Shown here: piece by piece, positions 46,804-55,838 of the stretch
Layout of the letters: every line of letters begins with the position of its first letter
Position numbering within the stretch: the first letter of the stretch is position 1
Origin: a phage
Direction: 5' to 3' (one strand)
Sequence record: PZ495249.1
DNA length: 64,000 nt
Made by a program: the position numbers and the translations under genes
The notes under the pieces: model-generated
Databases searched by the model: none
What the model was told of the DNA's origin: nothing
What the model saw: only the letters and a program-made list of their open reading frames with translations

Positions 46804-48897
46804 TTATCTGCGACGAGTAGACCAAGGCTGAGCGAAGGAAGCCCTTGAACTGTTTTGCAGTTTTCCGTATCCGGTGGTTGCTCCCATCGGTGTAGGAATG
46901 GCTACAGCTTTGAATACTTGCTCTTTTGACAATGTGTTGAAGCATGATGCCGCAGCATCGGGAATATCGTCTTTAAGCGTTGCGGTAGAACGTTCCCCGT
47001 TGAACGATTCGAGTTCTTTGTAAAAGTGATCCAAAGTCTCTTTGTTCGGGAATGATTCTTCAACGATGTAAACGAAACCATTCTGACATGCACTACTGAA
47101 CGGCATGAAACGCTGGAGCTTCTTCTTGTTACCAGGCATTGCGTCCGGCTTAACAATGAATCCCTCTGCGATCAATTTCTTCGCTGACTCGGTGTATTCA
47201 ATTAAACCTGCACCAGATGGATCTTTCGGTAACACTACCGTCACTTCATCACCATCAATTTTACATTGCTGGAGAATCAGATTATCACGATCACCTGGTA
47301 GGCGACGGAATCGACCAAAGATCTTGCTGTCTTTATCCTTAGCGTCATAATCATAATCACCAAAGATATAAATATTCCCGTCCGAGTCTTTCGCCATCTT
47401 AACAGATGTTGTATAGTCAGGGTAACGATAAGATTCAGTTGGAACAGAAACAGCCTTATCCCATGCTCGCATGTATTTCAGGTTGTTTGGCAGATCTGCA
47501 AACTTGATTACGTTCAGCCATTCGCGCTGGAAGAAACTCTCTTCTTGCGCACGAGCAAACCAGCAACCATCCAGAAGCTGTGCTCTCTTAACCGCAGTCT
47601 GAGATTTCAGAGCAGCAAGATATTTAGGGTTGAGGCGAATCAATTCAGGGTTATCGAAGATTGTACCACCGATGAACACGAAACTCTGTGGTTCAATGTC
47701 AACCATCTCTCCGGTGTTTGGGTTGATGATTTGACAGTTGTCAGGATACTTCTCTTTGAGTTCTTCTGCTGTCTCAGCAAATACTGGTTCATCTTGAACG
47801 ATGATGAAGTAAAGCTGCTTACCGCACATATCTTCACGAGGGAATCCCGCTTCATCCAGATATGGCAACACCCAATTCAATACCCAACTATCTGCATCAG
47901 GGTTACAGGTGCAAAGCATGAATGACGTTTCAGATTCAGAACGAAGACGACCAAGCAGGTATAGGAATTCATACTGTGTGAAGTGTGTCAATTCGTCGAA
48001 ACCAATCATAGAATACTGTGTACCCTGATGGTTAGTCTCTGCTGTTACGTTATCATTCTCTAAGTGGTCAAACTTGAGCGTACCACCTTTCGTTGCTCTG
48101 AATTCCATCTCCATTGCCTGTTCACGAACGTGCGGGCGTAGTGGAGAATATAGTTTCTTAGCCTCAGAGAACAAGCCCCCTGGTTTACGGTGAGCAGTGG
48201 TATTCTTACGGAATAAGATTCCCCCGAAGAGAGGATCTTTGTATGCGTATTTAAGCGCCTTTAAAAGCAGTAGGCGAGACTTACCGCTATTGCCAGTAAC
48301 GAAGATGTGATCGCCACGTCTAAAGACAACATAGCTACTTGGAGTTTCAAAACAGTATTTCTTATCATCGGTTGTCATTACCTCGTGAATTTTCAGGTGA
48401 GTGCTTGGCTTACCTTGAATGTTAAACGGTACACGCTTTCCAAACGGGTTTTCAATATATCCTCTGAGAGGATGCCCTGCTTGTTGTAACGCGATCAGAT
48501 CCCCAACAAGGATCTCGAAATGCTTCTTGGATTTCTTCTTCTTGTAGAATACAAATCGGTGTTCCATACTCAATTCTTGGAATACACCAACACCATTCGT
48601 AATACGATGTAAGTTGTCACTTGTTTCATGTTCTACGAAATACGGTGAAGTTAGTTCAAGACGTTTATTACGAGGATTGTATTGATAAATATCCTCTCCT
48701 GAATATCCGCTGATTGGCTTCCAGCCATCCACTGTCAGATATTCTGTTTCTGCACTGACACATCCCGCAGCCCCACCGTAAATCATTAGCTCCGGCATTA
48801 AATCCATCGCCAGTGTTTGTTTACCTGGTTGTGCTTTTACTTCAATGTCAGCATCTGCCAACGACATATTGGCCTTAGCTTTTGGTGTCCTTGCCAC
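46804..48897 (-). CDS. terL: terminase large subunit interrupted by a candidate mini-intein
   Basis: Walker A split as YGGAAG / SGKS by a 158-codon insert; Walker B IGFDELTHF; CTCNP motif; GTG start after RBS aggagg. Confidence 0.75.
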   Translation of the reverse strand: MARTPKAKANMSLADADIEVKAQPGKQTLAMDLMPELMIYGGAAGCVSAETEYLTVDGWKPISGYSGEDIYQYNPRNKRLELTSPYFVEHETSDNLHRITNGVGVFQELSMEHRFVFYKKKKSKKHFEILVGDLIALQQAGHPLRGYIENPFGKRVPFNIQGKPSTHLKIHEVMTTDDKKYCFETPSSYVVFRRGDHIFVTGNSGKSRLLLLKALKYAYKDPLFGGILFRKNTTAHRKPGGLFSEAKKLYSPLRPHVREQAMEMEFRATKGGTLKFDHLENDNVTAETNHQGTQYSMIGFDELTHFTQYEFLYLLGRLRSESETSFMLCTCNPDADSWVLNWVLPYLDEAGFPREDMCGKQLYFIIVQDEPVFAETAEELKEKYPDNCQIINPNTGEMVDIEPQSFVFIGGTIFDNPELIRLNPKYLAALKSQTAVKRAQLLDGCWFARAQEESFFQREWLNVIKFADLPNNLKYMRAWDKAVSVPTESYRYPDYTTSVKMAKDSDGNIYIFGDYDYDAKDKDSKIFGRFRRLPGDRDNLILQQCKIDGDEVTVVLPKDPSGAGLIEYTESAKKLIAEGFIVKPDAMPGNKKKLQRFMPFSSACQNGFVYIVEESFPNKETLDHFYKELESFNGERSTATLKDDIPDAAASCFNTLSKEQVFKAVAIPTPMGATTGYGKLQNSSRASFAQPWSTRRR
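48289..48762 (-). mobile_element. candidate mini-intein (Hint domain, no endonuclease domain) in the terminase P-loop
   Basis: Begins with Cys (CVSAETEYLTVDGW), ends with Asn followed by Ser; 158 aa; removal restores GGAAGSGKS. Confidence 0.55.
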
Positions 48898-50449: not shown

Positions 50450-50524
50450 TGGTTGTAGCAGATGGAATCGAACCATCATCAATCGGTTATCAGCCGAACG
50501 TATTAGCCGTTATACTATGCCACA
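50450..50524 (-). tRNA. tRNA-Ile (anticodon GAT)
   Basis: 7 bp acceptor with encoded CCA, loop CTGATAA, T arm GATGG-TTCGATT-CCATC; hand-folded. Confidence 0.55.
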
Positions 50525-50530
50525 ATTGTT

Positions 50531-50613
50531 TGGCATCCAGGTGAGGAATCTAACCCCTTGAAACTGGTTTTGGAGGCCAGCAACGGGAACACCCATTTTT
50601 AATCTACCCAGAT
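50531..50613 (-). tRNA. tRNA-like element, possibly Trp (CCA) with aberrant D region
   Basis: Acceptor pairs with two G/U wobbles; loop CTCCAAA; T loop TTAGATT lacks C56; D region about 7 nt too long. Confidence 0.25.
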
Positions 50614-50619
50614 ATTGTT

Positions 50620-50695
50620 TGGAGGCGGGAGCCGGAATCGAACCGACCTGCGACAAGCATATGAAACTTGTGAGTTCCCAGAACTCTATCCCGCA
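50620..50695 (-). tRNA. tRNA-Met (anticodon CAT) with U1/C72 mismatch
   Basis: Loop TTCATAT, T arm GTCGG-TTCGATT-CCGGC, CCA encoded. Confidence 0.5.
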
Positions 50696-50776
50696 CTTTT
50701 GGTTGATAGTAAGAGAATCAAACTCTTCTCACAACGCCGTATGAAAGCGTCCGAAACATCAGCTTCACACTATCAA

Positions 50777-51040
50777 TTAAACACGATGGATTATTTTAAC
50801 TGTCTCACCCTTATCATTCATAAGGTAGGCACTTTCATTCCTATGAATAAAGTCCGTAGAGTTGCCACTAATGACACTTGCAATAACACCATCCAGCTTA
50901 TCATAACCTTCAAAATGATATTGGATGTGTATATTTCCATCAAGTTCTATATAATGTTCTTCTTCATCTACCTCGTAAGGTACTGAGTCATAAATTTTTG
51001 TCCCTTTGGGGAACTTGCGAACTATTTTCAATGTATACAT
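50777..51040 (-). CDS. hypothetical protein inside the tRNA array
   Basis: 87 aa; RBS gaaggaaa. Confidence 0.4.
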   Translation of the reverse strand: MYTLKIVRKFPKGTKIYDSVPYEVDEEEHYIELDGNIHIQYHFEGYDKLDGVIASVISGNSTDFIHRNESAYLMNDKGETVKIIHRV

Positions 51041-51124
51041 AGTATTTCCTTCGTAGTGTTTATATTAGTAATATGCCGTCCCAAGCCGAACGGCGATTAG
51101 TGTTTTAGCTTGGCATTGATAATA

Positions 51125-51199
51125 TGGTACTTCCTGGAGGAATCGAACCACCGACGCTCACCTTGTAAGGATGACGTTCTACCATTGAACTAAGGAAGT
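51125..51199 (-). tRNA. tRNA-Val (anticodon TAC)
   Basis: D arm GTTC-AATGGTA-GAAC, loop CTTACAA, T loop TTCGATT. Confidence 0.6.
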
Positions 51200-51272
51200 A
51201 TGGCGGGGATTTTCCGCACTGTCTATCGCGATATGGACTCGGACAGTGTTCTCGGCTAAATACCCCATTGTT

Positions 51273-51359
51273 TGGTACATCAGGTCAGACTCGAACTGAC
51301 ACGCCCTCACGAGCACTGGAACCTAAATCCAGGGCGTCTACCAATTTCGCCACTGATGC
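51273..51359 (-). tRNA. tRNA-Leu (anticodon TAG), long variable arm
   Basis: Loop TTTAGGT, 15 nt variable arm, T loop TTCGAGT. Confidence 0.6.
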
Positions 51360-51367
51360 ATTTAATT

Positions 51368-51444
51368 TGGTGGAGAAGTGGAGAATCGAACTCCATACTC
51401 GAAGGTGCAAACCTCGTGTTTTAACCGAATATTACTACATCCCC
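51368..51444 (-). tRNA. tRNA-Ala (anticodon TGC)
   Basis: Loop TTTGCAC; G3/U70 wobble in the acceptor stem (Ala identity element); T arm TGGAG-TTCGATT-CTCCA. Confidence 0.6.
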
Positions 51445-51506
51445 AATTTGTATACACTACACAGAAGATAGGTCTGATTGCCTCGGCAGTTGCCGTAGTG
51501 TTTATC

Positions 51507-51582
51507 TGGTACGGATGGAAGGAGTCGAACCTCCGACGCAGGGCTTCGTAGACCCTCGTTCTATCCACTGAACTACACCCGT
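51507..51582 (-). tRNA. tRNA-Arg (anticodon ACG)
   Basis: D arm GTTC-AGTGGATA-GAAC, loop CTACGAA, T arm GGAGG-TTCGACT-CCTTC. Confidence 0.7.
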
Positions 51583-51588
51583 ATTGTT

Positions 51589-51663
51589 TGGTGCAGAGTG
51601 TTGGTAACGATCCAACCTGTGTGGCTTTTCAGACCACCACTAATCCATCTCAGTTAACTCTGC
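51589..51663 (-). tRNA. tRNA-Phe (anticodon GAA)
   Basis: Loop CTGAAAA; T loop ATCGTTA (A54/U58 covariation). Confidence 0.6.
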
Positions 51664-51669
51664 ATAATC

Positions 51670-51745
51670 TGGTCAGTGAGAGAGGACTCGAACCTCCAAC
51701 AGCTACGCCCCAAACGTAACACTCTACCACTTGAGCTACTCACTG
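51670..51745 (-). tRNA. tRNA-Pro (anticodon TGG)
   Basis: C1-G72 first pair typical of bacterial tRNA-Pro; loop TTTGGGG. Confidence 0.6.
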
Positions 51746-51752
51746 ATAAATC

Positions 51753-51827
51753 TGGCTACAGGTCTTGGGATCGAACCAAGTCATACGGTGGTCAAAGCAC
51801 CGTGCCTTCCCATTTGGCTACCCTGTA
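51753..51827 (-). tRNA. tRNA-Gln (anticodon TTG)
   Basis: U1-A72 and 3 bp D stem GCC/GGC as in E. coli tRNA-Gln; loop CTTTGAC. Confidence 0.6.
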
Positions 51828-51834
51828 ATTAAAT

Positions 51835-51922
51835 TGGTATCGTGGACGAGATTCGAACTCGCAAGGGATTACTCCCGCCAGATTGAAAGTCTGGTTACTT
51901 AGGCCGTTTTGTATACCACGAT
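51835..51922 (-). tRNA. long-variable-arm (type II) tRNA with anticodon loop CTTTCAA (anticodon TTC); isotype ambiguous
   Basis: Perfect acceptor ATCGTGG/CCACGAT, anticodon stem CCAGA/TCTGG, 15 nt variable arm with GGGA-GTAA-TCCC stem, T arm GCGAG-TTCGAAT-CTCGT. Confidence 0.45.
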
Positions 51923-52025
51923 ATAAAATTTCTTAAAGAGAACTGCTGAAAGTTGAAGGAGAAAACCATGAGCGAAAAGAGAAAAGGTTTCCAGCAGTTC
52001 CATTTAAAAAATCTCGTAGGGTTGT

Positions 52026-52104
52026 TGGCGCGGGTGACAGGATTCGAACCTGCGACGAACTGGGTGGAAGCCAGACACTCTACCAAACTGAGTTACACAC
52101 GCGC
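52026..52104 (-). tRNA. tRNA-Gly (anticodon TCC)
   Basis: Loop CTTCCAC, T arm GCAGG-TTCGAAT-CCTGT; D region slightly long. Confidence 0.5.
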
Positions 52105-52170
52105 TGATTAACAACTCTATAATACTACTCTACTACATTTTAGCCCTCGTTGTCAAGGGCTTTTGACAAA

Positions 52171-52497
52171 TTATTTCAGAAGTTTTTCCAAACCTTGCTT
52201 CATCGCATACTCTATGAAGAAGTTTAGTTCACCGATTAACTCTGGTTCCCACTGGTCTTCCAAGCCATAACATGAACAATGTCCACCATGAACTTCATAA
52301 AACTTATTGTCACGCTTATCGTAGAAGTAAACATCGGATGATCCAGTGTAGCACTCATACGTATAATCTGCGTACAGGATGATAATATCATCTTCTGTTA
52401 GATCAACATGATAATCACTCATCACTTGATCGAAGTCTGAAAAGTCGTTATCATACACGTCAACATGCAGATACTTTTCTAATTCTTGTTTATCCAT
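52171..52497 (-). CDS. hypothetical acidic protein inside the tRNA array
   Basis: 108 aa; strong RBS aagaggaggaaac; HGGHCSCYG motif. Confidence 0.5.
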   Translation of the reverse strand: MDKQELEKYLHVDVYDNDFSDFDQVMSDYHVDLTEDDIIILYADYTYECYTGSSDVYFYDKRDNKFYEVHGGHCSCYGLEDQWEPELIGELNFFIEYAMKQGLEKLLK

Positions 52498-52737
52498 GTT
52501 TCCTCCTCTTTAGAATATGTGGGGCAGTGACGGATACCCCTTTGGGTGACAAACCCTACGTTCGGAAGCTCGGTCAGACTGACACAAAACACGAAGTCAA
52601 ATGTCCTTCCTCCCTGCTGTCGATTGGAGAGAGCCGATCCCCTCTGAACTTCATTTAAGCGCGATACCACTTAGGGCTGTCTAACACTTTCCTGAACTTA
52701 CCAATCCACCTAATCCCAGTCACGGTTTCGGATTTTC

Positions 52738-52813
52738 TGGTGCTCCCACACTGAATCGAACAGTGATTTGCGGGTTACAAAGCCGCAGTAATAGGCCATT
52801 ATACGATAGGAGC
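52738..52813 (-). tRNA. tRNA-Thr (anticodon TGT)
   Basis: T arm CACTG-TTCGATT-CAGTG, loop TTTGTAA closed by a C/C mismatch. Confidence 0.55.
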
Positions 52814-52819
52814 AAATTT

Positions 52820-52895
52820 TGGCGGGCAATATTGGATTCGAACCAATTACCATTCGGTTAACAGCCGACCGCACATCCGTATGTGCTTATCACCC
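52820..52895 (-). tRNA. tRNA-Asn (anticodon GTT)
   Basis: Loop CTGTTAA, T arm ATTGG-TTCGAAT-CCAAT, acceptor with two G/U pairs. Confidence 0.55.
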
Positions 52896-52973
52896 ATGTT
52901 CTTCGTTAAGAGTAGGCGCGTTTCATCAGTCGCCTCGTGTTATTTTCTCCTGTTTCCAGGCTCCCTTTAGTGC

Positions 52974-53096
52974 TCGCGAGGGAGGGATTCGAACCACTCA
53001 CCTCTGCCAGAGCCAACCAGATCTTTCGGGTAATTACTCCGTCCAACCATTTGATTAACCTGCTGGCAGCGTCCATCGCCCTTAGACTGCCTCGCG
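52974..53096 (-). ncRNA. tRNA-like element, 123 nt, perfect 7 bp acceptor but weak T stem (pseudo-tRNA or tRNA with insertion)
   Basis: Acceptor CGCGAGG/CCTCGCG, T loop TTCGAAT present, about 35 nt more than a type II tRNA. Confidence 0.2.
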
Positions 53097-53136
53097 TCTG
53101 TCAATTCAGATGCCACTAAAGCTCTCTCAACTAATT

Positions 53137-53220
53137 TGGTGTGGGTAGATGGATTCGAACCACCGCGCCTTTCGGATCAGATTTACAGTCTGGTGCATTC
53201 AGCCACTCTGCCATACCCAC
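53137..53220 (-). tRNA. tRNA-Tyr (anticodon GTA), long variable arm
   Basis: Loop CTGTAAA, T arm GGTGG-TTCGAAT-CCATC, CCA encoded. Confidence 0.7.
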
Positions 53221-53226
53221 ATTGTT

Positions 53227-53303
53227 TGGTGCGCCGGAAAGGATTCGAACCTTTAGTCCTCTCATTAAAAGTGAGATGCCTTATCCAGTTTAGCTACCGA
53301 CGC
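53227..53303 (-). tRNA. tRNA-Lys (anticodon TTT)
   Basis: D arm GCTA-AACTGGATAA, loop CTTTTAA, T arm AAAGG-TTCGAAT-CCTTT. Confidence 0.7.
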
Positions 53304-53443
53304 ATAAATTTTCTTTAGGATAGGAAGTGTGGGGCACTTCACTATTTATATCGGTGATGGTTGCCGCCATCTGCCGAAAGTTTACTCTATCTAAGTAAGA
53401 GTCGAAACGCTACACGAATAGTATTTCTATCATAAAGAAAACT

Positions 53444-53529
53444 TGGCGGAAGAGGGGAGGGTTGAACTCCCACGCCCTTTCGGACGGCAGTTTAGCAAAC
53501 TGCTATGGCTACCATTTCATCACTCTTCC
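53444..53529 (-). tRNA. tRNA-Ser (anticodon GCT), long variable arm
   Basis: Loop TTGCTAA, 14 nt variable arm, T arm GGGAG-TTCAACC-CTCCC. Confidence 0.65.
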
Positions 53530-53537
53530 ATTTTGTT

Positions 53538-53614
53538 TGGCAGTCGCGACGGGTTACGATCCCGCATTCTCTCCCGTGACAGGGGAGTACCATTACCAAG
53601 CCAGCCCCGCGACT
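53538..53614 (-). tRNA. tRNA-Asp (anticodon GTC)
   Basis: Anticodon arm CTCCC-CTGTCAC-GGGAG; T loop ATCGTAA. Confidence 0.65.
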
Positions 53615-53621
53615 ATTAATT

Positions 53622-53711
53622 TGGAGGAAGATAATGGAGTCGAACCATCACCGTATCACTACAATGGGCCAGGGTTCAAATCTGGTTGCGTACCACTACG
53701 CCCTATCTTCC
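53622..53711 (-). tRNA. tRNA-Ser (anticodon TGA), long variable arm
   Basis: Acceptor GGAAGAT/ATCTTCC, loop TTTGAAC, long variable arm. Confidence 0.55.
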
Positions 53712-53775
53712 AATCTATACTTCTTAGTCTATCATACTTTTCAATCGGTTGTCAATAGCTTTTTGAAAATTATTT

Positions 53776-53853
53776 TGGTCGGGGAGATAGGACTCGAACC
53801 TACATTTCCTCCATTACGCTATACGGCTTAGAAGACCGCCACGGTACACCCCG
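53776..53853 (-). tRNA. tRNA-like element, possibly Arg (TCT), with aberrant D region
   Basis: T arm GTAGG-TTCGAGT-CCTAT and arm GCGGT-CTTCTAA-GCCGT present, but no canonical D arm and 19 nt between anticodon and T arms. Confidence 0.3.
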
Positions 53854-53881
53854 ATCTCTTAGTGCTGACTATAACATAACT

Positions 53882-54052
53882 TATTCGTTACTGTCAAGCT
53901 CTTTTTTAATTTCTTTTCTTGCTTTCTGACGTTCAGTGGCTTTACACACTTCCTGCCAAGATTCGTACTCGTCACCTTTACGGTAGCCACGGCTACGACA
54001 AAGGGAGCAGAGACAACCTTCTTGACGATATTTCAAACCATGAGGTTTCATA
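53882..54052 (-). CDS. hypothetical small Cys-rich protein (not in ORF track, 56 aa)
   Basis: ATG after strong RBS aaggaggatatATG; MKPHGLKYRQEGCLCSLCRSRGYRKGDEYESWQEVCK. Confidence 0.4.
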
Positions 54053-54064
54053 TATCCTCCTTAA

Positions 54065-54139
54065 TTGGTGAGCATTACCAGATTCGAACTGGTGTCTTTC
54101 GGGTTTAGAATCCTACGCTTTACCGCTAAGCTAAATGCC
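54065..54139 (-). tRNA. tRNA with anticodon CTA (candidate amber suppressor); low-confidence fold
   Basis: Acceptor GGGCATT/AATGCTC, D arm GCTT-AGCGGTA-AAGC, T arm ACCAG-TTCGAAT-CTGGT, loop TTCTAAA; anticodon stem has two mismatches. Confidence 0.35.
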
Positions 54140-54371
54140 CTTCGTAAATGTCACGACTATCAGGATCGTGATACAATTCTGCAATTTCTTTACTTAAAGT
54201 AGCTCTCAGTATAATCCCTTTGTGCGAAACAATCAAGTAGATTTTCGTTTCACTTACATCTCCAGGGGCTAAGAGTTTACCTCTTACAATCCGCAAACGT
54301 TCTGCTGAATACCCTTCTTCGAGATCAGCCAACATATCTGCCAACGATTTAGAGAAAGTTAACCGATGCAA
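54126..54371 (-). CDS. hypothetical protein (TTG start, weak)
   Basis: 81 aa ORF with weak RBS; 3' end overlaps the CTA tRNA. Confidence 0.25.
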   Translation of the reverse strand: MHRLTFSKSLADMLADLEEGYSAERLRIVRGKLLAPGDVSETKIYLIVSHKGIILRATLSKEIAELYHDPDSRDIYEGHLA

Positions 54372-55459
54372 GGTATTACTTTCACGGTTTACAATTCCCC
54401 AGATACGATCATCCAGTTTGCAACTTCCTGACTCACAATTAGTCTATGACATTTTCGTTCTCCTGTTTGTTAATAAAACATATAAAGAAGGACAATGATC
54501 AGGTGACGTTTGCCAACGCCCTGCCGAAGTTCCGAAGATTGCAAGTCTTCGCTTGAACCGCATTTCATCAGGAGTAACGTATGATCAGTACGTTTTTCCG
54601 AAATGCTCACACCCCACGGTGCTGACAGTTTTAACACCAATCAATGCCTTTCTTTATATGTTCTGTCGATGGTGGAGGACGGTACGGGATTTTAACCCGT
54701 CTAAACTGGTTTGCAATCAGCCACATAGACACTCTGACAACCGTCCCATCGAAAAGCCAGTCTGTTCCTGGCTGTCACCACAGTTTTAACATTCTGTGGC
54801 TTGAACGTAGGAGCTATTCGATGCTGGCATTCTCCCGTAGCTCTGCCTTTATAGGGGTATGAACCCGTAGGGCGCACCTTATTGTTCCGTTCAAGGGATC
54901 ATGTTGAATGTTAACCTCTGCTTTTCCTTTAGGTTATTCGGAGAGGTACAACGATTGGGTTAGCGAAGCCCAAACACCTCCAGAGCAAACAACAATCTCC
55001 AAAACTGGTGTGACTGGTGGGGCATGATCCCACATCATCTCCTTCACAGGGAGGAACGTTAACCAGCTTACGCTCACAGTCACCATTGTTTGTAGTGTCT
55101 CCAAGGCTTCCTATTCCATCCTAAGATGATCCACCCCTTCAACTAACGCGCTACATCCCTACGAAGAATGAACGTCATTCTCATCGTCTGAAATCTTGTT
55201 CAGAGCATACCACTGCGGAGATTAACCCGCTTCTCATCCTACGTGGTCGGTAGTAGTTGTCAATCAAACAACTCGTAAAATATATTCTCGTAAGAACACA
55301 TATTGCGAGAGTTTGGCACCAGGAGGAGGAGTCGAACACTCCTAATCAGGTCATGACTCCTGACTATCTCAAACCAAACACTGTTGTGTCGGCTATTGCA
55401 TAACAGCGAGCGCTCACTCCTATGCAGACCTTCACCAGTGTCGAGATCCTGGTATTGTT

Positions 55460-55550
55460 TGGTACGGGTGACGAGATTCGAACTCGTAAGATCATCAAAG
55501 ACCTGGGGGATTTTAAGTCCCATGTGTACTGCCAATACCACCACACCCGC
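55460..55550 (-). tRNA. tRNA-Leu (anticodon TAA), long variable arm
   Basis: Anticodon arm GGGA-CTTAAAA-TCCC as in E. coli Leu-UAA; T arm ACGAG-TTCGAAT-CTCGT; 91 nt. Confidence 0.7.
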
Positions 55551-55558
55551 TTTATTTA

Positions 55559-55741
55559 TTATCGACGAAGAATATCAATCACTTCGCCAAGCAACGCACT
55601 GTACGCCGCATCTTCGAGAATATCCTTCTGGAGTTCACTGTCAATCCCTGTTACGCTCTCGACAGTATCTGTTACCGGAGATACAACATCACGAGCAACG
55701 CTGGTAACATCATCAAGCACTTCACCGATAAATCCGAACAT
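55559..55741 (-). CDS. hypothetical small acidic protein
   Basis: Start set at ATG 55741 after RBS aaagaggagaa. Confidence 0.4.
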   Translation of the reverse strand: MFGFIGEVLDDVTSVARDVVSPVTDTVESVTGIDSELQKDILEDAAYSALLGEVIDILRR

Positions 55742-55760
55742 AATATTCTCCTCTTTAAGT

Positions 55761-55838
55761 TGGTGGTTCCACCTGGTTTCGAACCTGGACACTCTCGGTT
55801 ATGAGCCGAGTGCTCTGACCTACTTGAGCTATGGAACC
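55761..55838 (-). tRNA. tRNA with anticodon CAT (elongator Met or Ile2)
   Basis: Perfect acceptor GGTTCCA/TGGAACC, anticodon arm CTCGG-CTCATAA-CCGAG, T loop TTCGAAA. Confidence 0.6.

What the first reader, a model, noticed from the sequence alone, without database searches (positions are those of the whole stretch)
48289..48762. Candidate mini-intein splitting the Walker A motif of the large terminase
Between YGGAAG and SGKS the terminase carries 158 codons that start with Cys and end with Asn followed by Ser, the expected splice-junction chemistry; excision would regenerate a continuous GGAAGSGKS P-loop. Without splicing the ATPase would be non-functional. The penultimate residue is Gly rather than His.
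Basis: partly seen in the sequence, partly recalled or inferred. Interest (0 to 1): 0.6.

Follow-up and report, generated by a model that had tools for sequence, protein, structure and literature searches.

The report
Unannotated mini-intein in phage terminase P-loop
The phage's DNA-packaging motor gene carries a 158-residue self-excising protein element (a mini-intein) inside its ATP-binding loop; this is a known kind of element, but it is not annotated in any of the phi92/phAPEC8-type coliphage records I looked at.

Summary
Window 48289..48762 (minus strand) encodes 158 in-frame codons (Cys1...Thr-Gly-Asn, then Ser) that split GGAAG|SGKS in a 697-aa Terminase_6-type large terminase.

- **Empty site.** Insert-less homologs have a contiguous GGAAGSGKS. 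A sister phage contig shows the empty site at DNA level, differing by exactly 474 nt.
- **Variable alleles.** Other homologs carry 146- to 328-aa versions at the same site. The long ones model as LAGLIDADG homing-endonuclease inteins.
- **Fold.** The window's insert models confidently (pLDDT 90.9) as a HINT fold. The best solved match is the AceL NrdHF intein (6ZGQ).
- **Selection.** dN/dS is about 0.04, the same as for the terminase itself.
- **Annotation gap.** Pfam and NCBIfam miss the insert, and none of the GenBank annotations inspected mentions an intein, although at least 133 records carry it.

One point remains open. Cys1 and a Cys at block F position 4 (the class 3 branch nucleophile) are both near-invariant, so class 1 splicing is the most likely route but a class 3-like route is not excluded. 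This is a new member of a known kind, of moderate interest.

The parts
46804..48897 (-). Large terminase (TerL) precursor ORF: 697 aa, about 79.3 kDa, including the stop codon.
   Evidence: ORF list. Pfam Terminase_6N, E=7e-19, matches only residues 204-462, that is, after the insert. About 80% nt identity to TerL of phi92-like phages. Mass.
48763..48897 (-). N-extein, residues 1-45, ending ...MIYGGAAG (first half of the Walker A loop at 48763-48777).
48289..48762 (-). Mini-intein: 158 aa, about 18.3 kDa, no endonuclease domain. Its only two cysteines are Cys1 and Cys137.
   Evidence: Precise presence/absence against homologs. AF2 model with pLDDT 90.9. HINT-fold matches. Family profile against 6ZGQ, E=1e-11. 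Cysteine count and mass.
48724..48762 (-). Block A (N1): C1-VSAETEYLTVDGW. Cys1, Thr6, Gly13 and Trp14 are invariant in the TerL set.
48547..48588 (-). Block B (N3): ...ELS65MEH68R69F70VF. Carries Ser B:7, His B:10, Arg B:11 and Phe B:12.
   Evidence: The numbering is the same as S65/H68/R69/M70 of AceL NrdHF (PMC7891396).
48316..48363 (-). Block F (C2): DKKYC137FETPSSYVVFRR. Carries Cys at F:4, no His at F:13, and a near-invariant Arg148.
48286..48309 (-). Block G (C1) plus the +1 residue: HIFVT156-G157-N158 | S+1.
46804..48288 (-). C-extein, residues 204-697 plus the stop codon. It starts SGKSRLL (second half of the Walker A loop at 48277-48288) and contains the rest of the ATPase and the nuclease domain.

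Best explanation
The segment is a functional endonuclease-less mini-intein inserted in frame in the Walker A (P-loop) motif of a Terminase_6-type large terminase.

**How it works.** The 79-kDa precursor is translated whole. The insert folds as a HINT domain that brings its two ends together. It then excises itself and joins Gly45 to Ser204. This yields a 61-kDa terminase with the canonical GGAAGSGKS loop and a free 18-kDa intein.

**Most likely chemistry (inferred, class 1).**
1. Cys1 makes an N-S acyl shift, helped by Ser65 and His68.
2. Ser+1 attacks the thioester to give the branched ester.
3. Asn158 cyclises. Arg69 substitutes for the missing penultimate His, as in AceL NrdHF.
4. An O-N shift forms the peptide bond.

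The invariant Cys137 (block F:4) sits where class 1 inteins have the catalytic Asp. It assists in this scheme, or possibly relays the acyl group.

**Origin.** The element descends from a mobile LAGLIDADG-endonuclease intein that targets P-loop-coding DNA. It lost the endonuclease and is now inherited vertically across the phi92/phAPEC8 group (Stephanstirmvirinae). Selection for efficient splicing keeps it intact because the terminase is essential.

**Shown here:** the insertion anatomy, the fold, the conserved residues, the empty site, the endonuclease-bearing alleles and the purifying selection.

**Inferred:** that splicing occurs, and by which route.
For: **Anatomy and empty site**
- The ORF is continuous.
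- Pfam's terminase match begins only after the insert.
- 52 homologs have an intact GxxxGSGK[ST]. 36 have an insert at the identical G|S junction, all C...[TS]GN|SGKS.
- The empty site in a 124-153 kb sister-phage contig with the same TerL-portal gene order is ...GGT GCT GCT GGT|TCA GGT AAG TCT. The window has ...GGG GCT GCG GGA|474 nt|AGC GGT AAG TCT.

**Mobile-element behaviour**
- Intein-plus and intein-minus lineages are interleaved on the extein tree. Long alleles (301-328 aa) are scattered, while mini alleles (146 and 158/159 aa) are fixed in clades.
- The 326-aa allele models with pLDDT 85.7. It matches TliVMA, PhoVMA, PI-SceI and PI-PfuI inteins (E 1e-13 to 1e-10) and I-DmoI/I-SceI.

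**Fold and closest relative**
- The window's insert models with pLDDT 90.9 and pTM 0.83.
- Foldseek's top hit is 6ZGQ, the AceL NrdHF intein (E 1.7e-6, TM 0.72). It is followed only by hedgehog, BIL and intein structures.
- The family profile hits 6ZGQ at E=1e-11.
- AceL NrdHF has S65, H68, R69, Cys at C2:4 and T144-G145-N146|S+1. It splices within minutes, and G145H kills it (PMC7891396).

**Conserved residues and selection**
- In 265 aligned family copies, every residue present at position 1 is Cys (245) and every residue at B:10 is His (252). F:4 is Cys in 247 of 253, G:6 is Gly in 237 of 241, and G:7 is always Asn (241).
- Window against phi92: intein dN/dS is about 0.037 with pS 0.68, against 0.029 for the extein. 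The intein is 90.5% identical at the protein level.

**Precedent.** TerL P-loop inteins that splice are established in mycobacteriophages (PMC5050341).
Against: - No experimental evidence of splicing exists for this protein or for any phi92/phAPEC8-type terminase that I could find.
- Curated intein profiles (Pfam Intein_splicing/Hint, NCBIfam) do not match this sequence even at E<=1 to 10. A single-sequence search of PDB finds no intein.
- The two histidines that usually assist Asn cyclisation (G:6 and F:13) are absent.
- Sequence similarity to AceL NrdHF is significant only in the N-terminal half. A C-terminal profile did not retrieve it.
- The class 1 assignment rests only on the invariance of Cys1. 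The invariant Cys at F:4 and Thr at G:5 are class 3 signatures.
Confidence: 0.88

Rival explanations
1. It is a real, splicing intein, but it works by a class 3 or relay route. Cys137 (block F:4) attacks the N-terminal scissile bond, or takes the acyl group over from Cys1. This forms a block-F branched thioester that is then passed to Ser+1. Under this reading Cys1 is dispensable or auxiliary.
For: - The closest solved relative by sequence and by fold is a proven class 3 intein (PMC7891396).
- Cys F:4 is about 98% conserved, Thr/Ser at G:5 is conserved, and Ser is the commonest +1 residue. All three are class 3 hallmarks (PMC2807308).
- Three inteins with the WCT triplet but a Ser1 or Cys1 were flagged by Tori et al. 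as possible class 3 members.
- Later work states that an N-terminal nucleophile is 'not required' in class 3 (PMC5222942).
Against: - Every residue present at position 1 is Cys (245 of 245) in family copies from many different host proteins. That is hard to explain if Cys1 is dispensable, since class 3 inteins are defined by covariation of the triplet with loss of this nucleophile.
- Trp B:12 is absent (Phe here; V, M, I, F or L in the family).
- Many family members have Cys+1, which is very rare in class 3.
- Class 1 inteins with Cys at F:4 are known and polyphyletic (PMC3196547).
Confidence: 0.22
2. It is a dead or domesticated HINT-fold insertion that stays in the mature terminase, which somehow tolerates or uses it.
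For: - The endonuclease is lost and the element is fixed across a whole phage subfamily.
- Its central part (residues 71-120, including a KKKKSKK patch) is even more conserved than the N-terminal splicing region.
- Curated intein profiles do not recognise it.
Against: - In the unspliced protein the Walker A consensus GxxxxGK[ST] is destroyed (it would read ...FVTGNSGKS), and the preceding strand is displaced by 158 residues.
- All splicing residues (C1, S/T-x-x-H, C F:4, N, S+1) are conserved under dN/dS of about 0.04 although synonymous sites are saturated. A non-splicing insert would not need a terminal Asn or a +1 Ser.
- An inactive class-3-like intein is known only from a prophage remnant (PMC3196547), not from an essential gene of lytic phages that are grown in the laboratory.
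Confidence: 0.03
3. It splices, but conditionally. Cys1 and Cys137, the only two cysteines in the intein, can form a disulfide that holds the precursor inactive. Terminase activation, and therefore packaging, would then be gated by the redox state of the infected cell. This is an add-on to the best explanation, not an exclusive alternative.
For: - The intein has exactly two cysteines, both near-invariant and both at active-site positions.
- In AceL NrdHF the F:4 side chain lies about 3 angstroms from the N-scissile carbonyl.
- Redox-gated intein splicing is documented for a mycobacterial DnaB intein (PMC6195587, title and abstract).
- TerL inteins have been proposed as post-translational regulators (PMC5050341).
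Against: - This is purely inferential. I could not measure distances in the model, and the E. coli cytoplasm is reducing.
- Conservation of the two cysteines is explained just as well by catalysis alone.
Confidence: 0.1

Closest known systems
AceL NrdHF intein (PDB 6ZGQ; Hoffmann et al. 2020, PMC7891396): a naturally split, atypical class 3 intein from an Antarctic lake phage-like contig
   Same: - It is the best match by profile (E=1e-11) and by fold (TM 0.72).
- It has the same residue numbering for Ser65, His68 and Arg69, and a hydrophobic rather than Trp residue at B:12.
- It has Cys at block F:4 and lacks both the F:13 and the penultimate His.
- It has an identical Thr-Gly-Asn|Ser C-terminal junction and is of similar size (146 against 158 aa).
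   Different: - AceL NrdHF starts with Ala1, is proven class 3, is split into two genes around a GIY-YIG endonuclease, and sits in a ribonucleotide reductase.
- The window's intein starts with an invariant Cys1, is contiguous, and sits in a terminase P-loop.
- Sequence similarity is significant only in the N-terminal half.
Mycobacteriophage TerL P-loop inteins TerL1-a and TerL1-b (Kelley et al. 2016, PMC5050341)
   Same: These are inteins in the Walker A loop of phage large terminases. The tested representatives, including TerL1-b, splice efficiently (TerL1-a was not among those tested). They come with or without a LAGLIDADG endonuclease, and splicing is argued to be required to build the active site.
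   Different: - The host is a different terminase family (Terminase_1 against Terminase_6).
- The insertion point differs: GK|T for TerL1-a and one residue away for TerL1-b, against G|SGKS here, three residues upstream.
- I found no detectable sequence relationship, and the hosts are actinobacteriophages rather than enterobacterial myophages.
Canonical class 3 inteins (MP-Be DnaB, Dra Snf2, Msm DnaB-1; Tori et al. 2010, PMC2807308)
   Same: They have Cys at F:4, Thr at G:5 and Ser/Thr at +1. They have a proposed phage origin and a preference for P-loops of helicases and terminases.
   Different: They lack an N-terminal nucleophile, have Trp at B:12 and keep the penultimate His. Here Cys1 is invariant, B:12 is Phe and G:6 is Gly.
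Inteins that splice without a penultimate His (Chen, Benner and Perler 2000; Ceu ClpP intein, Wang and Liu 1997). Both are listed as references in PMC4031507; their contents are recalled from memory.
   Same: The terminal Asn is preceded by a residue other than His, yet these are still inteins.
   Different: They are unrelated in sequence. In some of them the missing His lowers activity, whereas in this family Gly appears to be the optimised state (G145H is lethal in AceL NrdHF).

Membership tests
Intein (protein-splicing HINT element) | In-frame insertion in a conserved host-protein motif, precisely absent from homologs, so that removal restores the motif | tested here: met
   GGAAG|158 aa|SGKS against a contiguous GGAAGSGKS in 52 homologs. 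The DNA-level empty site differs by exactly 474 nt.
Intein (protein-splicing HINT element) | Nucleophile (Cys/Ser/Thr) as the first intein residue | tested here: met
   Cys1 (TGT, 48760-48762). Cys fills every occupied first position (245) in the 265 aligned family copies.
Intein (protein-splicing HINT element) | Block B (T/S)xxH motif | tested here: met
   S65-M-E-H68. His fills every occupied B:10 position (252), and B:7 is Ser or Thr.
Intein (protein-splicing HINT element) | [quoted passage not shown] | tested here: met
   N158|S204. Asn fills every occupied G:7 position (241), and +1 is S, C or T.
Intein (protein-splicing HINT element) | Penultimate His (block G:6). This is common but not obligatory. 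| tested here: not met
   Gly157. Gly is found in 237 of 241 family copies. The same Gly145 occurs in the active AceL NrdHF intein, where G145H abolished activity (PMC7891396).
Intein (protein-splicing HINT element) | HINT fold | tested here: met
   AF2 pLDDT 90.9. All 50 matches listed by Foldseek (of 116 at E<=10) are intein, hedgehog or BIL structures, the top one being 6ZGQ at TM 0.72.
Intein (protein-splicing HINT element) | Match to curated intein profiles (Pfam Intein_splicing/Hint; NCBIfam intein N- and C-terminal models) | tested here: not met
   No intein family matches the window's insert at E<=1 (Pfam) or E<=10 (NCBIfam). Only 2 of 22 relatives touch Intein_splicing, at E=0.003.
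Intein (protein-splicing HINT element) | Allelic relatives carrying a homing endonuclease at the canonical position between blocks B and F | tested here: met
   301- to 328-aa alleles occupy the same TerL site. The model matches TliVMA, PI-SceI and PI-PfuI inteins and I-DmoI.
Intein (protein-splicing HINT element) | Demonstrated excision and extein ligation | not testable with these tools
   Needs expression or proteomics. Nothing was found in the literature searches.
Mini-intein | Splicing domain only, with no endonuclease domain (roughly 130-200 aa) | tested here: met
   158 aa. The model is a single HINT domain with one short helix (86-94), and there is no LAGLIDADG match.
Class 3 intein | Non-nucleophilic first residue | tested here: not met
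   Cys1 is invariant. The definition is from PMC2807308.
Class 3 intein | Trp at block B:12 | tested here: not met
   Phe70 here; V, M, I, F or L in the family. AceL NrdHF likewise has Met.
Class 3 intein | Cys at block F:4 | tested here: met
   Cys137, conserved in 247 of 253 copies.
Class 3 intein | Thr at block G:5 and Ser/Thr at +1 | tested here: met
   Thr156 and Ser+1 in the window. Across the family G:5 is T or S, but +1 is also often Cys.
Class 3 intein | Block-F branched thioester intermediate; Cys F:4 essential and residue 1 dispensable | not testable with these tools
   Requires mutagenesis (C1A, C137A/S) and trapping of the intermediate.
Bacterial intein-like (BIL) domain | No +1 nucleophile or no intein-type block G; located in variable regions of non-conserved proteins | tested here: not met
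   Ser+1 is present and the insertion lies in the most conserved motif of an essential enzyme. It is therefore not filed as a BIL, although BIL structures appear among the fold matches.

The most novel reading that the evidence does not exclude
The window's intein belongs to a very large, mostly metagenomic, phage-associated intein family in which two thiols are conserved together: Cys1 and Cys at block F:4. The family also has Thr/Ser-Gly-Asn at the C-terminus. Its nearest characterised relative is an atypical class 3 intein that has lost Cys1.

The most novel reading not excluded is that this family is the surviving progenitor state that Tori and Perler postulated for class 3 inteins. On that reading it would splice through a two-thiol relay (Cys1 thioester, then Cys F:4 thioester, then Ser+1 ester), or could use either route. 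That would make it a natural bridge between class 1 and class 3 chemistry.
Probability: 0.2. Interest if true: 0.6.

Novelty: new member of a known kind. Interest (0 to 1): 0.35.

Why it matters
- **Annotation.** At least 133 GenBank phage genomes carry this element at 80% or more coverage, including phi92, phAPEC8 and BASEL-collection phages. All of the roughly 45 rows listed, and the three records I opened, label it only as 'terminase large subunit' or similar. [quoted passage not shown] Terminase trees, structure models and length comparisons for these therapeutic-candidate phages include 158 residues that are probably absent from the mature enzyme.
- **Detection.** Pfam and NCBIfam intein models miss a family with thousands of members. 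Intein surveys based on those models therefore under-count phage inteins.
- **Mechanism and tools.** A compact, contiguous, E. coli-native relative of the fast AceL NrdHF intein, with both Cys1 and Cys F:4, is an easy system for testing how class 3 chemistry relates to class 1. It is also a candidate protein-engineering tool.

Tried and rejected
- **Curated profiles.** Pfam and NCBIfam scans of the insert alone found no intein family.
- **Single-sequence PDB search.** A phmmer search of PDB gave only noise.
- **Endonuclease part by sequence.** A phmmer search with the central (endonuclease) part of the 326-aa allele gave no PDB hit. Its identity came only from the structure model.
- **C-terminal profile.** A profile of the last 41 residues, meant to align Cys137 and TGN directly to 6ZGQ, did not retrieve it. 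The C-terminal correspondence therefore rests on the fold match and on the residue numbers given in PMC7891396.
- **Other copies.** A six-frame scan with the family HMM found only the TerL copy in the window.
- **Antisense or out-of-frame endonuclease.** The only ORF of 50 aa or more inside the intein region in another frame is a 60-aa one at 48307-48489 (+). It is too short and I did not pursue it.
- **Endonuclease relic.** MAFFT aligned the helix at residues 86-94 to the first LAGLIDADG helix of the long alleles. The long allele's model has its own E82-85/H86-99 element upstream of the endonuclease. The helix is therefore more likely a native family element than a relic.
- **Artefact explanations.** Assembly error, frameshift or intron are ruled out by the continuous ORF, by protein-level conservation with saturated synonymous sites, and by the same segment in more than 130 independent genomes.
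- **Literature.** Tori and Perler 2011 (PMC3133030) and the phi92 genome paper (PMC3457257) are not held. What I say about the former comes from papers that cite it, or from memory.
Full report

Yes. The window carries a 697-codon ORF on the minus strand (46804..48897, GTG start). Its product matches Pfam Terminase_6N (E=7e-19), but only from residue 204 onward.

Residues 46-203 are encoded by 48289..48762 (minus strand) and read CVSAETEY...DHIFVTGN. MIYGGAAG lies on the N-terminal side and SGKSRLL on the C-terminal side. I checked the codons for Cys1, Ser65, His68, Cys137, Thr156, Gly157, Asn158 and Ser+1 against the plus-strand sequence.

Only the strand was left unstated.

**2. What is the genome?**

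The gene is about 80% identical at nucleotide level to the large terminase of phi92-like coliphages (Justusliebigvirus). The alignment is a single ungapped piece, so those phages carry the same segment.

A tblastn search with the insert alone finds it at 80% or more coverage in 133 GenBank phage records. Identity is 82-91%, and the records are Justusliebigvirus and Phapecoctavirus (the phAPEC8 group). Every row listed labels the gene 'terminase large subunit', 'hypothetical protein' or similar, and none mentions an intein. The phi92 RefSeq record, BASEL phage EmilieFrey and phage KMB37 were opened directly.

**3. Is it an insertion, and is it precise?**

A search of 5.8 billion proteins gave 2256 homologs. 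Of the 120 retrieved:
- 52 have an uninterrupted G[GAS][AS][AG]GSGK[ST];
- 36 have an insert at exactly the G|S bond.

Every insert starts with Cys and ends [T/S]-Gly-Asn before SGKS. Insert lengths are 146, 149, 158/159, 194, 246 and 301-328 residues.

The nearest insert-less lineage (P0019-P0021, 62-63% identical) comes from 124-153 kb phage contigs with the same TerL-portal-protease order. Its DNA reads ...TAC GGT GGT GCT GCT GGT|TCA GGT AAG TCT CGT. The window reads ...TAC GGT GGG GCT GCG GGA|474 nt|AGC GGT AAG TCT CGC.

On a neighbour-joining tree of the exteins, insert-bearing and insert-free lineages are interleaved. Examples are P0023(+)/P0064(-), P0031(+)/P0067(-) and P0026(+)/P0083(-). 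The long forms are scattered singly, whereas the 146-aa and 158/159-aa forms are each fixed in one clade. This is the pattern expected from invasion by a homing element, followed by endonuclease decay and vertical inheritance.

**4. Is it an intein by fold and by relatives?**

Sequence-profile libraries do not say so. Pfam and NCBIfam give no intein family for the insert, and phmmer against PDB gives noise.

A profile built from 22 inserts (A2) hits the AceL NrdHF intein (6ZGQ) at E=1e-11. It also hits PolII, TFIIB and RecA inteins weakly.

AlphaFold2 with that alignment gives a confident all-beta model with pLDDT 90.9 and pTM 0.83. Foldseek against PDB returns 6ZGQ first (E=1.7e-6, TM 0.72). 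All 50 listed matches are hedgehog, bacterial intein-like or intein structures.

The 326-aa allele at the same terminase site models at pLDDT 85.7, with two alpha-beta-beta-alpha-beta-beta-alpha repeats inserted between blocks B and F. It matches endonuclease-containing inteins (TliVMA 1.3e-13, PhoVMA, PI-SceI, PI-PfuI) and the LAGLIDADG enzymes I-DmoI and I-SceI.

The family therefore consists of genuine homing inteins. The window's copy is an endonuclease-less mini-intein.

**5. What about the penultimate Gly?**

In the TerL set the invariant positions are C1, T6, G13, W14, H68, Y136, C137, G157 and N158.

A profile search of 1.84 billion cluster representatives found 11,985 proteins at E<=1e-3, 3531 at E<=1e-10 and 203 at E<=1e-30. 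In the 265 aligned copies taken from the best hits:
- every residue present at position 1 is Cys (245);
- every residue at B:10 is His (252), and B:11 is most often Arg;
- F:4 is Cys in 247 of 253;
- G:5 is Thr or Ser;
- G:6 is Gly in 237 of 241;
- G:7 is always Asn (241).

Hoffmann et al. (PMC7891396) describe AceL NrdHF as having Ser65, His68, Arg69, Met70, Cys124 at C2:4 and Thr144-Gly145-Asn146|Ser+1. It lacks both the C2:13 and C1:6 histidines. It splices within minutes, G145H abolishes activity, and Arg69 contacts the C-scissile carbonyl.

The window's intein has Ser65, His68, Arg69, Phe70, Cys137 at F:4 and Thr156-Gly157-Asn158|Ser+1. The Gly is therefore a family trait shared with a proven, efficient intein, not a sign of decay.

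**6. Is it under selection?**

Between the window and phi92, synonymous sites are essentially saturated (pS 0.68-0.74). Even so, the intein is 90.5% identical in protein, with dN/dS of about 0.037. The exteins are 89.6% identical, with dN/dS of about 0.029. The intein is thus constrained as tightly as the essential enzyme around it, as expected if failure to splice is lethal.

Residues 76-123 are 98% identical, and blocks 61-100 are the most conserved part across 17 clade members. This region includes a KKKKSKK patch and a short helix.

**7. How does it most likely work?**

Unspliced, the Walker A consensus GxxxxGK[ST] is broken (it reads ...FVTGNSGKS) and the preceding strand is displaced by a 158-residue domain. 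The ATPase should therefore be inactive until splicing. This is an inference, and it is consistent with the argument made for mycobacteriophage TerL inteins in PMC5050341.

The expected products are a 61.0-kDa terminase and an 18.3-kDa intein from a 79.3-kDa precursor.

I favour the standard class 1 route, which involves:
1. a Cys1 N-S shift;
2. transesterification to Ser+1;
3. Asn158 cyclisation assisted by Arg69;
4. an O-N shift.

The reason is that Cys1 is invariant across hundreds of divergent copies in many host proteins.

The route is not settled. Cys at F:4 and Thr at G:5 are two of the three class 3 signature residues, and F:4 Cys is the class 3 branch nucleophile (PMC2807308). The nearest characterised relative uses exactly that route. 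By the published definition the intein is not class 3, because it has an N-terminal nucleophile and lacks Trp B:12. [quoted passage not shown]

**8. How does it compare with what is known?**

Inteins in phage large terminases are well known:
- They are the most common intein host in actinobacteriophages: about 40% of mycobacteriophage inteins and 293 of 784 in a 2025 survey.
- Insertion in ATPase P-loops is the classic site.
- Rak2-like jumbo phages also have terminase inteins that SMART and Pfam recognise.

What differs here:
- The host is a Terminase_6-type enzyme of enterobacterial myophages.
- The bond is G|SGKS, three residues upstream of the 'classic' GK|T site.
- The intein family is the C1 / Cys-F:4 / TGN family.

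That family also occupies G|(S/C/T)GK(S/T) sites and other sites in primase-helicases, UvrD-like helicases, ribonucleotide reductases and RtcB ligases.

I found no paper or record that reports the intein in phi92- or phAPEC8-type phages. One 2024 paper on such phages says no inteins have been reported in coliphages. A 2025 paper notes an intein in the DNA polymerase, not the terminase, of a phi92-like phage. My literature access is limited to open-access text.

**9. Verdict.**

The element is a new, unannotated member of a known kind, of moderate interest.

The residual novelty lies in two things: the family's two-cysteine active site, which relates it to class 3 chemistry, and the annotation and detection gap.

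Noticed in passing
L006 (Vibrio phage 1.063.O._10N.261.45.C7, MG592441.1) 1-965: In this TerL homolog (P0068, called from 'MGSGKSRL') the gene is interrupted within one or two codons of the same P-loop position. The interrupting element is a group I intron (Rfam RF00028, 74.4 bits, E=9e-19, L006 548-880), preceded by a NUMOD4 homing-endonuclease ORF. The same stretch of terminase DNA is therefore targeted by an RNA-level and a protein-level self-splicing element. P0022, P0049, P0055 and P0060 have similarly truncated starts and may be the same thing.
   Followed up: partly
window 50450-55838 (minus strand): A dense array of 23 tRNA genes lies just upstream of the lysis and terminase genes. One has a CTA anticodon (54066-54140; ARAGORN calls it tRNA-Pyl), which makes it an amber-suppressor-type tRNA.
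   Followed up: no
window 48394-48549 (minus strand; intein residues 72-123): The central part of the mini-intein includes a KKKKSKK patch (residues 75-81) and a short helix (86-94). It is the most conserved part of the element in the phi92/phAPEC8 clade, about 98% identical to phi92 although synonymous sites are saturated. Why a post-endonuclease linker region should be this constrained is unexplained. Possibilities are folding or splicing efficiency, or a secondary function such as DNA binding.
   Followed up: partly
related proteins P0121-P0268 (no window coordinates): The intein family defined by the window's copy is very large: 11,985 cluster representatives at E<=1e-3, with up to five copies in one protein. 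It occupies primase-helicases, UvrD-like helicases, ribonucleotide reductases and RtcB ligases. Pfam calls no intein splicing domain in the nine host proteins tested, only a weak LAGLIDADG_3 match in two.
   Followed up: partly
window 48307-48489 (plus strand): A 60-codon ORF lies antisense inside the intein-coding region. Antisense endonuclease ORFs are known in some phage inteins, but this one is very short and is probably spurious.
   Followed up: no
phi92-like phage SD2 (PQ821640.1), outside the window: A 2025 paper annotates an intein in the DNA polymerase precursor (ORF 70) of a phi92-like phage. This phage group may therefore carry at least two inteins. The polymerase does not appear to be among the window's large ORFs, though they were not individually identified. 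The family HMM finds no second copy in the window.
   Followed up: partly
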